A stretch of 64,000 bases of DNA, from positions 372,001 to 436,000 of the forward strand of contig NW_026857242.1 in assembly GCF_026571515.1 (NCBI RefSeq). The letters are read 5' to 3'. The stretch comes from Ruditapes philippinarum. Lineage: Eukaryota. This document shows positions 1-48,000 of this stretch, one piece after another (within the stretch, counting starts at the first letter, position 1; every line of letters begins with the position of its first letter). Position numbers: made by a program.

Positions 1-3000
1 ATCGGTTTTATAGGTTTTCTATTTATAGAACTTGAAGTGTTTGAATCAATGATAAAGCTGTAATTAATGTTTATTTACAGCAAGCATATCCACTTAATTA
101 TCACTAAACAGGAAACATATCGGGAATGTATCGGAATTATATCGGTGGTGATAATCTTTCAAAATAACATATTTTGTCTATGAGATTGCTAGTGTATTTT
201 GTGGACCTTGGCACTTCAACAATTTTTTTAGTAAACCAAATGCTATGTCATTCATGTGGTGAGTTTTGCTTCTCGGTATAAGTGGGGCTCTTTTGCACAT
301 AATTTGTTCAACATATATGTGAAAGTTATGTTTTATTATGCAATGGCATAAACGTTTTTGATTTAAAGATAAACTATGCTCGTCTTTGAGCATAACATTT
401 TAATCACAGAAATTTATTGAAATCTCTAAAATTCTTACTTGAATGAAACACGAATAAACTATGTAACTATGTATGTATGGGAAGCTGCGTTCCCTATTAC
501 AGATCAAGTACAGTTTGTCCTTTCTTTAAAAAAACTGCCAGTTGTTTTAAATGACACTATATATTTATATTGTGACCACCTTTAGTGTTTAGAGTTTAAA
601 ACATAATTTATCTAGTTTGTGTTAAGTCAAAACATGTTTATTTTAGATTCATAAGGAGCCTATGTTGCAATGATCAATATTTTTAATATCAAATTTAAGC
701 ATAGTATATCTCTAAAGTACCCAAGCTTTGATAAAAATTAATTAATTAATTTGAAATTTTGTCTTTGAAAATAATTCCAATCTTTATGCTCCAAGTGTTT
801 TCATTTTGATGGATTTGTATTTTTATTGAATTCGGTTGTGGCTGTTGTTAGTGTTTTCGTTGCTATAATCGTTTGCATGTTACCTGGAATATGCAATGAC
901 ACATGTAATTTAAAGACATTTAAATTCATTGTCAGTTCACACAAAACTATTAAATACATTAGTAGTCCAACAATATTTCATTGTCTTGTTTGCTGAAATC
1001 TAAATCTTCAATTGGTAGAACGTTGTTGTAATCAGTTGTGTTTATTGAGCGATCCACGTCTAATCTTTAGTACATCTTGCAAGAAAATGGCATCATGCTT
1101 AACAACTTACGATTAATTTTGACAGTGGTTGACAGTTGTTTCTATCAATATGATGTTCAGTAAATAAATAAGATGAAGCTATAAAAATATAGCTGATCAA
1201 AATATAAAAGATATCTAAATATAAGTTAATTTTAACATGACTTTCATTCATATTAAATTTTCTATATCGTTTCTGTGAAAACATAAACTACGAAAAATCA
1301 ATTCAAGAATATAATGCTAGAAACAGAACTGCATTTGCAATCATAAATCTGACCTAGAATATTTATTGACGAAAGAAATTGAAACAATCCTCTAGAATGC
1401 TTAAATTCTTTTTGATTTTGAAACGTTGCTGGCAGAATGATCGTTGAATTCAGCTGTGAATATTTGACATTCTATAAATATGATTTGGCCAGATAGTGTC
1501 AGGTGTGGGAGAGATTATTTCTGATATAAGATGATACATTGATACATTAGCTAGGTTTATGAGCTGGAATATTTAAAGGTTTTGTCTTTTACGTATCATA
1601 TTGATATAAATGTATTTCTGATATATGAGCCGCGTCACGACAAAACCAACATAATGGGTTTGCGACCAGCATGGATCCAGACCAGTCTGCGCGGCCGCGT
1701 AGTCTGATCAGGATCCATGCTGTTCGCTACTGTTTGCTACTTGTAATAGGGTTGGTGGATCCTGATCAGACTGCGCGGATGCGCAGGCTGGTCTGGATCC
1801 ATGCTGGTCGCAAACCCATTATGTTGGTTTTGTCATGACGCGGCTCATATGTATCTGACAATGACGTTAATGAAAAAGTATATCCATCTAATATAAAATA
1901 GCAGAATCCTCGTTGATTTTTTTTTGTTTTGTTCTTGTTTGTTTGTTTGTATCCTTGAGTTTGGACATAAACACATTCACAAAAAGAAATGTTTTCATCA
2001 AAATTAACAAGATCCGTTTCTATATATGTTTTGCCATGTTGTGTTGGCTTCCAATTTTCACTAATTAAAGCAAGAATATAGTTTGTGCCTGTATTAACCC
2101 ATTACCAGATATTCACGCCTTTTAACGACTTTTTCATTCCCCTTTTTGTGGTCTCAAATGGTGAAAAAATGCCTTACTTAGACCCCTTACACTTGTTTTT
2201 TGTTTGGGAAATGCGCGTGTGTGTAAGCGTTACTGTTTTTCTTTAATGAAACTGGAAATGTGTTCATGTAAAAATCTTTTATCAAGTAAACAATGGTAGT
2301 AACATTGTAAAAATTTCTGCAATTCTTCCTTAAAGGCTAATTTATGTTATGGTAAATAATCTTTTAGTACAGAGATAAAACTCAACATCAACAGCAAGTG
2401 TCAAGTGTCGTGTGGCAGCTGTAAAGAGTTGTCCCGTACTTCACTTCAGTGATGTTATATTTTTCTGGTCCCTCGGGATCCTTGATGCCAGCACTATTAA
2501 GGGTTGAGAATTGAGTACCACTTAAGCCGGTGCTATGGGGCGTCAGGGATGTTGCATTTATTCACTATCTCTCATGTACAGACTCAATCAAACCGAGTCT
2601 GTAACTTTCATGTAATTTTTTTGTGATTTATGCTTCCGAGGGATCACTTTGTTTAGCGTCTCTTTGTAGAAAAAAATCCAGAAACATCAATCACAACAAA
2701 ATTACATGAAAAGTGCAAACTAGGTTTGATTGAGTTTGTACATGATGGATAAAAAATCAGTACAACATATTTTATGCCCCCTAGCACCACTTGAGTGGTA
2801 CTCAGCTTTGAAAACTTAGATATGCTGGAATCATTGATCCCGAAAGACCTAGAAATCAGCTATTTATGTCCATTCATATAGATATTTACAAAACTTTTTA
2901 GTTCTTCATTGATATTGAGTTGTTAATTATATCATATATATTTCAGAAAATTAATTAAAATAAATTAAGTCTGGATAATTTATCTCATGGCTAATTCCGT

Positions 3001-45000: not shown

Positions 45001-48000
45001 TCTTAATTCTCCAGAAGTTCTCATGATTCTTGTCGGAAACATTCCAAGGTAGTTTGCTTGATTTTGAGCTGACACATTTACAGACTGTTTGCTATTGGCA
45101 CCGGAAGTAGACAATGAAACAAATGTAATTGAGAGTATTGATGTATCTTACATTAGGTATATGCAAAAGAAGAAGTTTGAGAAGGTTCAGAAAAATATTT
45201 TCTCTTGCAGAAAATCAGTCGTTTAGAAATCCGGCAAATTACTTCTTGTTGTACTGGAATCAATCAATTACATTTACAGTTAATATCTGGAAAACGTGAT
45301 CCCTCGGAAGCATAAAAAGGAGCAAATTAACATGAAAATTGCAGACTCGGTTTGATTGAGTCCCAATACCTAAGGGAGATTATGAAAAGGTGCAACATTC
45401 TCAAGACCCTTGCACCGGCTAGAGCAAACCATTAGCTGATTTTTTGTGTTTTTATCATCTTCCTGTTTGAGGGACCATTTCATATGGTTTACCGACATGT
45501 AAATATATATTCATTTCCGTTAAAACATAATTACACTCCAAAAACATATACTCTAATATCAGAACAAAACCTAAAAAAAAGGTTTACAATTTCGAGTTAT
45601 TTTTGTTCAATATGATCAATAATTGAAATAACTGAAATGCATTCGAGCTTTTTATTGTTCATTGATATTTACCCATTCATGTATTGTCATTTAATACAGT
45701 CTTTTACGGAAAATGTTAATAAGCATTAGCGAAACGCTCGATATCACCATCAATATAAAAACTTTATTTGCTGTGATTGCTTGAAGCATAAAGTTCAACA
45801 TATTCTTTTATACCCCCTTTCTTTTCGCAGTATATTAACATTTTGTTTTTAAATTCTAATGTGAAAAAAACGCAAAAGGCTATGTATATTGACAACACAT
45901 TTTCAAATTAAATCGTGACTGCAATTGTTAGTGGAAATAATTCTGTATGTGTTTGTAACAAAAATCATGACATACTTATTTCCCGGAAAAAATCTAAATA
46001 ATAATAATAATTGTTTACACAAGTAGTTATAGAAAATAAATTCATGATATGATATGGAAAACACGCCTGTTAGCTCACAGTGTATGTGTGTGTTCGTCAG
46101 ATAAAAATATATGTTAACGATATATGAATAACGTAAGGAATATTAATGTTAACCTTGTGGATGTATTTGATATTGTGAATTTAATTTTCTGCAAGTAAGT
46201 TTTAAAACAATTTTCAGTATATTTTACTTATTTATACATCATGCAATCTGATGCGATATACAAAATACTCCTTTTTTTCTTTAGACAAAAAGAAATATTT
46301 ATTAACTTTATTCTTTTCAAGATCTGCAAGATTTCCTCTATTCGCCTAAACTAATATTGATTGCCTTACCCAAAACACATTTTATTACACATTCAGTTTT
46401 CAGTAATTGAATAAAAGTTATAGATCAAACATGAAAGATGTATTTGAAAAGAATCAAACGTACCTTTTAAAGTTGATAAATTAGAAGAAATATGCTAAAA
46501 TTTGACCAGTGATACTTTGTTCGGCATTTGATAAAAGGACTAGGCTTGTCTGTTTAAGTCAATAGAAAACGCTGCATTAAATTATGTTAACTTGGTGAAT
46601 TAAACCATCTTATTTCCATAATAGAACTAAAATTATAACATCAAGTTTCTAGTGTATTGTGATGTGTTCCTCTATGACAAATTGTAATATTTAAGTATTC
46701 TAGTTTCAAAACTGAAAACCTTTCATCATTTGCAATCCCCTAATAGGCTGGTGTAATGAACTTTAAAGTACCATCCGAGATGAAAGAAGAATGAGATTAC
46801 AAATATTCATGTATGAAGCTTGTAGATATGTGGAATTTTGCTAAAGCATGGACGTTAACTTGCAATTACAAGTACCATTCATGAACAGGCTAAAATCAAA
46901 CCGAGCCTGCAACGTTTTCAATTTGGCGTTTTGGGCTTTCCTAAGATTCCGGGTTTTTTCTCTCTATCTTATTTTCTATATCGGTACAGAAAAGCTATTT
47001 TTCATTTATTTTATGCGTTTTGTAAATAATTATTTCTGTATTTTGATTATGGTATTAGTTTATAAAAACTGTATTATAGTTCGATTGTGCAGGAAGCTGT
47101 AAGTTGATAGACACATTCCCAAACTGTTTCTGCAAACAACTATTACTTAGCAGTTAAATTTCTTCCTTAAGGAAACAGCGGCTTGCACCTGGCGAAAGTG
47201 TTGTATTAAAGATACATGTAGAATGTTTAAAAGATTTACAGAATGGTGTAAAATTAAACGTGGGTTGCCTTTTGTAATATTGTTAACTTATAAAAGTATA
47301 ACGCATAATCAAGATTAAGGTACGACCTACTAAAGGTCTTATATCTTTTTAATTTAATATGAGATTAAGGATTTTGTTATAATAACACCCATAACAGATA
47401 ACACTTTTTCCTGGCACAGCATCTTAATAATAAGAACAAACTGTCAGATATTCTCCTAAGTTTAGAATTATTGTATATGATGTTAGCAGTGTATAAATTT
47501 GCCATCAGAATAAAAATGATCATTTAATAGTTTCATAAACTCTTGAACTGAAACTCTGTTGTATGAAACGCAATGATAAGCTTGGATAGGTATGCGATTA
47601 TTGTAAAATTTTGATGTAGATACTGTAGTATAAGAGTCTGCATGTGAGAAAGCAATCCAGGAAGCTTACAGAATGTCGGGATTGTGTTCAGGTACCCAAT
47701 TATACCTAAAATAATGTAAAAAGTTAAATTTCAAAACTGAAGGGGCACCTGAGGTCTTCCTACCTCCACCAGTAAATCTCGAAAGTCGCCATATGACCTT
47801 TACTTTGTTGGTGGGACGTAAAACTCTACCAAAAATACTGTAGTATAATAGATATTTACTTAATTTCTAAATGTAAAATAAACATCTTATGATGTATACA
47901 CTTTGCTGTAATCTCTACACACGACAATAAGATATAATATGAATACATAGTGTCAACAAAAAACTTGTAGCAACTTTTTTAAGAAAGGACCGAATTGACT

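What the first reader, a model, noticed from the sequence alone, without database searches (positions are those of the whole stretch)
130..45150. ~45-kb ancient tandem array of short conserved non-coding modules upstream of the HCN gene
Seen: the region lacks long host ORFs, yet several independent families of short blocks recur in the same orientation at few-kb spacing, ~65-80% identical by eye, while the intervening DNA is unalignable. Pairs/sets: 1465-1565~4250-4345; 12200-12305~16795-16900; 13860-13990~20230-20360; 15240-15295~25300-25355; 22810-22990~25940-26100~31015-31200~32620-32770~35290-35450; 23158-23290~44900-45045 (weaker 8460); 26865-26955~30125-30215 (weaker 9715); attttatgtcgatcc at ~8855 and ~17026; ggtgRtgataatctt at ~143 and ~14581. 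None has TIRs, TSDs or tails, and all are co-oriented, unlike the dispersed TEs here. Inference: a 3-5 kb unit was serially duplicated long ago and only functional islands stayed recognisable. This could be an array of alternative promoters/first exons feeding HCN (protocadherin/UGT1-like logic) or a tandem family of micro-exon or non-coding genes. I know of no such array described for HCN genes.
Basis: partly seen in the sequence, partly recalled or inferred. Interest (0 to 1): 0.7.

Follow-up and report, generated by a model that had tools for sequence, protein, structure and literature searches.

The report
Decayed repeat blocks in HCN intron
The supposed 45-kb array upstream of a clam HCN channel gene is mostly that gene's long first annotated intron, holding scattered old repeat fragments and a few small local duplications, with no sign that they act as promoters or exons.

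Summary
The finding is partly real but misread. Of nine claimed block families, five (A, B, E, F, G) are homologous beyond shuffled controls. C is marginal. D, H and I are at chance, and the "weaker" copies at 8460 and 9715 are absent.

The blocks are non-coding, do not fold, and match no RNA family.

The interval is not upstream DNA. The annotated HCN protein maps a 5' exon to 9380-9478, so 9479-50644 is a 41-kb intron.

There is no single 45-kb array:
- The families are unrelated to each other, sit in separate zones and share no unit order.
- G has a minus-strand copy at 48.2 kb.
- Equally old families (J, L) are in mixed orientation; other families have copies in downstream introns.

What is real:
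- Short-range repeats are all direct (9 direct, 0 inverted at <=6.5 kb).
- Five E blocks cluster at 22.8-35.5 kb (P about 0.0004).
- Two segments share the order X-G-E, with islands at 68-70% identity and spacers at <=53%.

Best reading: old local direct duplications or re-insertions of short repeat blocks, plus dispersed transposon relics, in a long intron. Constrained intronic regulatory modules remain a live rival. Alternative first exons are unsupported.

Genome-wide copy number, orthologous introns and transcripts could not be checked.

The parts
9380..9478 (+). Annotated HCN 5' coding exon (aa 1-33 of XP_060594853.1), followed by a G|GTAAGA donor. An acceptor-like tract ends at 9327.
   Evidence: Exact peptide mapping; sequence; a homologous peptide is present in a second species' model.
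9479..50644 (+). Intron between the annotated 5' exon and the next exon (41,166 bp).
50645..50773 (+). HCN exon (aa 33-75). It contains the ATG of the short isoform (MSLEAGSP).
56302..57027 (+). HCN exon (aa 76-317) ending in the Ion_trans_N domain.
   Evidence: Pfam E=5.9e-23; 100% identity to P0002.
22799..22990 (+). E1 block
25937..26116 (+). E2 block (most diverged, 53-57% to the others)
31017..31199 (+). E3 block
32590..32775 (+). E4 block
35265..35456 (+). E5 block (70% identical to E3)
26844..26993 (+). G1 block
30106..30350 (+). G2 block (75-81% identical to G1; extends further 3' together with the minus-strand copy)
34247..34354 (+). G4 block (weak; detected by profile only)
   Evidence: E=0.009 against a profile built from the three other copies.
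48090..48352 (-).
   Evidence: E=2.2e-16 before training.
29490..29639 (+). X1 block (new here)
   Evidence: 49.7 bits against a null maximum of 44.
33675..33818 (+). X2 block. Together with G4 and E5 it is collinear with X1-G2-E3.
1458..1583 (+). A1 block
4242..4367 (+). A2 block
12200..12302 (+). B1 block
16795..16898 (+). B2 block
13861..13992 (+). C1 block (marginal)
20231..20364 (+). C2 block (marginal)
23135..23264 (+). F1 block
44879..45013 (+). F2 block (21.7 kb from F1)
362..682 (+). J repeat, copy 1. The other copies are at 29134-29423 (-) and 47865-48085 (-).
20938..21120 (+). L repeat, copy 1. The other copies are at 23988-24280 (+), 15922-16063 (-) and 47745-47826 (-).
37387..39176 (-). 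LINE-type reverse-transcriptase fragment, antisense to HCN
   Evidence: RVT_1 E=1.3e-39.

Best explanation
From 9479 on, the interval lies inside a 41-kb intron of the annotated HCN gene, not upstream of it. The intron is AT-rich and non-coding, and it is crowded with decayed repeats.

They do not form one array. Three unrelated sets sit in three zones:
- A at 1.4-4.4 kb.
- B, perhaps with C, at 12-20 kb.
- E, G and X at 22.8-35.5 kb.

These sets lie among dispersed repeats of the same size and age in both orientations.

I read the blocks as relics of short, low-copy repeat elements. They were copied locally, in the same orientation, several separate times while the intron grew by duplication and transposon insertion. 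E, G and X may be parts of one older composite element of about 1.8 kb, now mostly reduced to single pieces. On this reading they have no role as promoters or exons.

Shown: the homology, the positions, the orientations, the intron context, and the lack of coding or RNA-structure signal. Inferred: the copying mechanism and the absence of host function.
For: Intron context:
- Exact mapping of XP_060594853.1 places aa 1-33 at 9380-9478, aa 33-75 at 50645-50773 and aa 76-317 at 56302-57027.
- A second species' model has the homologous first peptide.

Repeat-like behaviour:
- G has four copies with ragged extents. One is inverted at 48.2 kb, next to a J copy.
- G1-G2 are 75-81% identical with sharp edges, yet their flanks do not align.
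- J and L, of the same size and identity range, occur in both orientations.
- Distant relations are 8 direct and 7 inverted.
- Conservation inside E is compatible with uniform decay (P=0.21, 0.24 and 0.11). For G, two of three measures are too (P=0.47, 0.39), while window variance is raised (P=0.019, partly alignment edges).

Local copying:
- Relations at <=6.5 kb are 9 direct and 0 inverted.

No single unit:
- No family profile hits another family, even in a 7-kb search space.
- No further members are found at E<=5.

No gene-like signal:
- Stops in all frames.
- No codon periodicity.
- 1 of 20 folds has z<-2, and its partner copy does not repeat this.
- 0 Rfam matches at gathering score, and no permissive match lies in the blocks as defined; the nearest, a chance-level one (E=0.54) at 16883-16956, overlaps only the last bases of B2.
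- 0 tRNAs.
Against: - For the X-G-E pair, the islands are 68-70% identical while the 466-bp and 760-bp spacers score like unrelated DNA. The same test found homology in 25 of 25 simulations at 59% identity or more. So whole-segment duplication with uniform decay is excluded. The conserved spacing (616 against 572 bp, and 911 against 1018 bp) fits slower-evolving, possibly selected, islands better than independent insertions.
- Five E copies clustered within 12.7 kb, all in one orientation (P about 0.0004), is not what random dispersal gives.
- No terminal inverted repeats, target-site duplications or tails were seen in the extended alignments.
- Chance open frames over E4 and the inverted G copy found no relatives in the protein libraries, whereas a MITE frame found 300 of 312 candidates. 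This negative is weak, because old copies carry stops.
Confidence: 0.5

Rival explanations
1. The islands are intronic cis-regulatory modules of the HCN gene. A stretch of the intron was duplicated in tandem several times. The spacers decayed to noise while selection slowed change in the modules.
For: - In the X-G-E pair the islands are at 68-70% identity, against spacers at <=53%, with conserved order and spacing.
- Short-range relations are 9 direct and 0 inverted.
- E copies cluster.
- TGACGTCA is kept in 4 of 5 E copies, and occurs 5 times in the window against 0.47 expected.
Against: - Conservation within the blocks is not patchier than uniform decay, and the 12-column run around TGACGTCA is not exceptional (P=0.24).
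- E copies are only 53-70% alike.
- G also exists inverted, 18 kb away in another context.
- Island GC is barely above flank GC (31.5% against 28.3%).
- No cross-species data could be consulted.
Confidence: 0.28
2. This is the reader's idea: the units are alternative promoters with non-coding first exons, which splice to the common acceptor at 50645.
For: - The blocks lie upstream of that acceptor on the sense strand.
- E3, E4 and E5 carry AG|GTRAT shortly after the TGACGTCA motif.
- One annotated isoform starts at the ATG in the 50645 exon, and two accessions share one protein, so some variation in the 5' part or in the untranslated exons may exist.
Against: - The donor-like site is absent in E1 and E2.
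- Similarity runs equally on both sides of that site, so there is no exon-like border.
- No other family shows conserved acceptor and donor borders.
- There is no GC or CpG rise.
- Every annotated long isoform uses the exon at 9380-9478.
Confidence: 0.06
3. The blocks are small genes: a cluster of miRNA or snoRNA genes, or micro-exons of a tandem coding family.
For: Block size (100-200 bp) and co-orientation would fit.
Against: - Fold z-scores run from -2.83 to +2.23. Only 1 of 20 is below -2, and its partner copy does not repeat it.
- No Rfam match falls in the blocks as defined; one chance-level match (E=0.54) overlaps only the last bases of B2.
- Stops occur in all frames.
- Mismatches are spread evenly over codon phases.
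- Indels among the G copies are 6-8 bp.
Confidence: 0.02

Closest known systems
Variable first-exon clusters (protocadherin, UGT1A type; recalled, not looked up)
   Same: Repeated co-oriented units lie upstream of a shared splice acceptor.
   Different: In those clusters each unit is a long coding exon with its own promoter, and the units align along the exon. Here the blocks have no open frame, no exon borders and no promoter evidence, and they belong to several unrelated families.
Repeat-carrying mobile elements of bivalves: tandem-repeat-containing MITEs (DTC84, PMC3879986) and Helentron-borne satellite-like arrays (PMC7492417). Only the search listing and the start of each abstract were seen.
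   Same: A bivalve genome, with short non-coding blocks of about 150-190 bp scattered through gene-rich DNA.
   Different: As far as the abstracts go, those monomers sit head to tail inside one element. Here the blocks are 1.6-5 kb apart, and I found no arms, inverted ends or tails.
Duplicated conserved non-coding elements and shadow enhancers (recalled)
   Same: Islands are more alike than the DNA around them, near a neuronal gene.
   Different: There is no cross-species conservation evidence here. Decay inside the blocks is uniform. One family also occurs inverted elsewhere.
Ordinary intron growth by local segmental duplication and transposon insertion (general knowledge)
   Same: A long first intron with mixed-age repeats, a LINE fragment antisense to the gene, MITEs, and short-range direct repeats.
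   Different: In a plain segmental duplication the spacers should be as similar as the islands. In the X-G-E pair they are not.

Membership tests
Variable first-exon / alternative promoter array | Each unit ends in a splice donor that can join the common acceptor. | tested here: not met
   A donor-like AG|GTRAT is present in 3 of 5 E copies only, and it lies in the middle of the conserved stretch. No consistent borders appear in A, B, F, G or X.
Variable first-exon / alternative promoter array | Transcripts start in the units and splice to the constant exon. | not testable with these tools
   No transcript data are available. The protein models show only the exon at 9380-9478 or a start inside the 50645 exon.
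Variable first-exon / alternative promoter array | The units lie upstream of the constant exons, on the sense strand. | tested here: met
   The blocks at 12-45 kb lie on the + strand upstream of the acceptor at 50645. The G copy at 48.2 kb is antisense.
Tandem segmental duplication array | Copies lie head to tail in one orientation. | tested here: met
   5 of 5 E copies are on the + strand. Relations at <=6.5 kb are 9 direct and 0 inverted.
Tandem segmental duplication array | Units are homologous along their whole length. | tested here: not met
   Spacers score like unrelated DNA (all |z|<1.8). The test has full power at 59% identity or more.
Tandem segmental duplication array | The same internal order is found in every unit across the 45 kb. 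| tested here: not met
   The X-G-E order is found in 2 of 5 E units only. In a third unit G follows E. A, B and F are absent from the E zone. The families are unrelated to each other.
Interspersed repeat (transposon relic) | Copies occur in both orientations and beyond the locus. | tested here: inconclusive
   Met within the window for G, J and L. Not met for A, B, E, F and X. The genome-wide test was not possible. A protein-library proxy gave 0 hits for E4 and for the inverted G copy, against 300 of 312 candidates for a MITE.
Interspersed repeat (transposon relic) | Structural hallmarks: inverted ends, target-site duplications or tails. | tested here: not met
   None was seen in extended alignments of the E and G copies. 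At 53-80% identity such marks may have decayed.
miRNA / snoRNA cluster | A stable conserved fold, or a match to a known family. | tested here: not met
Conserved non-coding regulatory elements | Slower change than the flanking DNA. | tested here: met
   For the X-G-E pair only: islands at 68-70% against spacers at <=53%.
Conserved non-coding regulatory elements | Conservation in orthologous loci of other species. | not testable with these tools
Conserved non-coding regulatory elements | Motif-level constraint inside the element. | tested here: not met
   Invariant columns, longest conserved run and window variance in E all fall within the neutral simulation (P=0.21, 0.24, 0.11).

The most novel reading that the evidence does not exclude
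The E, X and G islands are selectively kept, tandemly multiplied regulatory modules inside the long 5' intron of a cAMP-gated channel gene. Four of five E copies keep the palindromic cAMP-response-type site TGACGTCA. The cluster would then be a homotypic, cAMP-responsive enhancer or internal-promoter array, through which the channel's own second messenger tunes its transcription.
Probability: 0.1. Interest if true: 0.55.

Novelty: new member of a known kind. Interest (0 to 1): 0.2.

Why it matters
Mainly as a correction. The blocks sit in an intron, not upstream. The striking co-orientation is partly an artefact of reading one strand by eye. And there is no coherent 45-kb array.

The small residue is of modest interest. 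In one segment pair the islands have clearly changed more slowly than their spacers. If genome-wide and cross-species checks showed that these islands are unique to this locus and conserved, they would be an example of regulatory elements duplicated in cis in a mollusc neuronal gene.

Tried and rejected
- Coding exons: six-frame translation shows stops in all frames. Pfam found nothing beyond the reverse transcriptase and the HCN exon among 109 frames. There is no codon-phase bias.
- Small RNAs: 20 folds, Rfam at gathering and at E<=1, and tRNA search were all negative for the blocks.
- One ancestral unit behind all families: no cross-family hit.
- Residual homology in the spacers: none, with the test's power checked.
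- L-E collinearity between 20.9-23.0 kb and 24.0-26.1 kb: rejected as evidence of a duplication. L1-L2 are 79% alike but E1-E2 only 53%, and L is a dispersed repeat.
- Copy-number proxy through protein libraries: the positive control worked. E4 and the inverted G copy gave nothing. I treat this as a weak negative only.
- Short unnamed cluster members as a source of 5' exon information: they cover internal exons only.
- Literature: one search listed 12 of 101 papers, one search gave 5 papers, one search gave 2, and one search gave 0. By title and the start of the abstract, none concerns repeat arrays or clustered first exons at HCN loci. No paper was read in full.
- An nhmmer run with full sensitivity timed out and was replaced by relaxed filters.
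Full report
**Context**

- The window is 64 kb, about 30% G+C, and contains no N. 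I do not take it for human.
- The open frame at 56302-57027 carries the HCN-type Ion_trans_N domain (Pfam E=5.9e-23).
- Searched alone, as a single exon, that frame is 100% identical over its full length to the NCBI model XP_060594853.1, "HCN channel 2-like isoform X3" (663 of 1543 candidates had E<=0.001).
- The next hits are another species' model at 92% and Mya arenaria at 83%, followed by other molluscs. So the organism is a bivalve. The tool output cuts off the species name.
I made no joined model.

**Where the interval lies**

- All five long isoforms in the cluster begin with a 33-residue peptide. It maps exactly to window 9380-9478 on the + strand and is followed by G|GTAAGA.
- Residues 33-75 map to 50645-50773, and residues 76-317 to 56302-57027.
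- The second species' model has the homologous first peptide, 27 of 33 residues identical by my count.
- So 9479-50644 (41,166 bp) is an intron of the annotated gene. Only 1-9379 can be upstream.
- Even that is uncertain, because the exon is preceded by a pyrimidine tract ending in AG at 9327. This looks like an acceptor, so it may be an internal exon.
- These are predicted (XP_) models. I could not see the transcripts.

**Are the blocks real?**

- Self-comparison with word size 7 gave 62 HSPs at E<=1e-3, 29 direct and 33 inverted.
- With +1/-1 scoring, the best score in 20 Markov-3 shuffles was 36.8-44.0 bits. No shuffle reached 45 bits, while the real sequence has 30 direct and 20 inverted HSPs at that level.

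| Family | Result |
|---|---|
| A | 74 bits, real |
| B | 76.8 bits, real |
| E | pairs at 48-72 bits, real |
| F | 61 bits, real |
| G | 94 bits, real |
| C | marginal: 38 bits; nhmmer tile E=8.3e-5 among 532 tiles |
| D | no HSP |
| H, I | exact 15-mers that do occur twice, at chance level |

- For H and I, 19 such direct 15-mer repeats remain after masking young repeats, against 6-18 in ten shuffles.
- Profile searches at E<=5 found no copy at 8460 or 9715.
- The profiles did find two further G copies: a weak one at 34247-34354 (+) and a strong one at 48201-48352 (-), the latter at E=2.2e-16 before it entered the profile.
- I also found a new pair, X, at 29490-29639 and 33675-33818 (49.7 bits).

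**What the blocks are not**

- Every block has stops in all six frames.
- Mismatches are spread evenly over the three codon phases in A, B, E, F, G and X. Indels among the G copies are 6-8 bp.
- Of 109 open frames of 62 aa or more across the window, only a reverse transcriptase (37387-38724, minus strand) and the HCN exon pass Pfam cut-offs.
- Twenty folds (ten blocks on both strands) gave z-scores from -2.83 to +2.23. The single value below -2 (B1, minus strand) is not repeated by B2, which gave +0.36.
- Rfam gave nothing at gathering score. At E<=1 it gave three matches (E=1e-5 to 0.66), all far below their gathering scores, on a palindromic MITE near 2.6 kb, and a chance-level hit (E=0.54) beside B2.
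- There are no tRNAs.

**Is there one array?**

No.

- No family profile hits another family, even in a 7-kb search space. The only hit is at E=0.95.
- The families occupy separate zones: A at 1.4-4.4 kb, B with marginal C at 12-20 kb, and E, G and X at 22.8-35.5 kb. F2 is an outlier at 44.9 kb.
- The claim that all blocks are co-oriented fails.
- Families of the same size and identity that cannot be seen by eye on one strand are mixed in orientation:
  - J at 362 (+), 29134 (-) and 47865 (-).
  - L at 15922 (-), 20938 (+), 23988 (+) and 47745 (-).
  - Other families have copies in the downstream introns at 58-63 kb.
- In the sensitive tile scan I dropped 46 of 70 relations that touch the two MITE families, a tandem zone or a large palindrome. 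Of the 24 kept, distant relations are 8 direct and 7 inverted.

**What is real**

- In that same tally, relations at <=6.5 kb are 9 direct and 0 inverted.
- The five E blocks span 12.7 kb of the 64 kb (P=0.0064) and share one orientation (combined P about 0.0004).
- Two segments are collinear: X1-G2-E3 (29490, 30106, 31017) and X2-G4-E5 (33675, 34247, 35265), with offsets of 4184, about 4133 and 4280 bp.
- In a global alignment only X and E stand out, at 40-42 of 60 columns against 17-33 elsewhere.
- The spacers score like unrelated DNA. Across all ten comparisons the z-scores ran from -1.27 to +1.74.
- A simulation with indels shows this test finds homology in 25 of 25 runs at 59% identity or more, and loses power at 53% or less.
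- So a whole-segment duplication followed by uniform neutral decay is excluded for this pair. Either the islands changed more slowly, or discrete pieces were copied.

**Weighing the two readings**

For repeat relics:
- G behaves like a mobile or dispersed element. It has four copies of ragged extent, one of them inverted next to a J copy.
- G1-G2 are 75-81% alike with unalignable flanks.
- Conservation within E, and on two of three measures within G, is no patchier than uniform decay on a star tree. The run around TGACGTCA is not exceptional, although the motif occurs 5 times against 0.47 expected.
- E copies are only 53-70% alike and show no adjacency trend.
- Island GC is 31.5% against 28.3% in the flanks.

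For constrained modules:
- The contrast between islands and spacers, with conserved spacing.
- The short-range direct bias.
- The clustering of E.
- The lack of transposon hallmarks.

A proxy for copy number was only weakly informative:
- A chance open frame over a MITE found 300 of 312 candidates, nearly all on short JGI contigs.
- The frame over the inverted G copy found no candidate.
- The frame over E4 found 0 of 1.84 billion representatives.
- But old copies carry stops, as 4 of the 5 local E copies do in that frame.

I put repeat relics copied locally at about 0.5, constrained intronic regulatory modules at about 0.28, alternative first exons at about 0.06, and small genes at about 0.02.

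**What stayed unchecked**

- Genome-wide copy number and orthologous introns.
- All transcript and chromatin evidence.
- Literature. Searches found nothing on repeat arrays or clustered first exons at HCN loci. For bivalve repeat elements I saw only listings and the start of abstracts (PMC3879986, PMC7492417, PMC8268682).
- Comparisons with protocadherin/UGT1 clusters and with duplicated conserved elements are from recall.

Noticed in passing
1608-1853, 28622-28858, 50361-50634: A palindromic MITE of about 250 bp in three copies, 81-85% alike. The third copy ends 11 bp before the splice acceptor of the exon at 50645. A chance open frame across it has 300 significant relatives among 312 candidates, nearly all on short JGI contigs, so the family is high-copy.
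   Followed up: partly
2433-2855, 13330-13540, 45262-45427 (-), 59153-59412; relics at 15324-15394 (-), 18039-18152, 19208-19318, 46843-46960: A second MITE-like family, in both orientations. The copy at 2.4-2.9 kb is an inverted pair that gives sub-threshold Rfam miRNA-precursor matches (MIR7996, 49.9 bits against a gathering score of 119).
   Followed up: partly
9300-9478: The annotated first coding exon is preceded by a pyrimidine tract ending in AG at 9327, so it may be an internal exon with the true first exon further upstream. The long isoforms read from an ATG at 9380 through to the MSLEAGSP start at 50682. One isoform (XP_060594855.1) starts at the latter. The 44-residue extension may therefore be an upstream open frame rather than real protein.
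   Followed up: partly
43739-44532: A large inverted repeat with arms about 91% alike over 797 columns. Mirror open frames of 114 and 115 aa lie on the two arms (43778-44119 minus strand, 44149-44493 plus strand), and neither has a Pfam match.
   Followed up: no
42034-42891: Three to four direct repeats of roughly 270-330 bp, 63-87% alike, seen by blastn and nhmmer but not listed by Tandem Repeats Finder at score 60.
   Followed up: no
36000-46000: A stretch with higher G+C (33-38% against about 30%). It holds a LINE-type reverse-transcriptase fragment (37387-39176, antisense to HCN), the repeats at 42 kb and the palindrome at 44 kb. It looks like a cluster of later insertions that separates F2 from the E zone.
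   Followed up: partly
26267-26580 and 58453-58729: A younger repeat (86% over 190 bp), with one copy between E2 and G1 and one in a downstream HCN intron.
   Followed up: no
27278-27587: A CAGA/GTCT-rich, microsatellite-like stretch that gives long spurious open frames on both strands.
   Followed up: no
53091-53098: The only TGACGTCA outside the E blocks lies in the intron between the exons at 50.7 and 56.3 kb.
   Followed up: no
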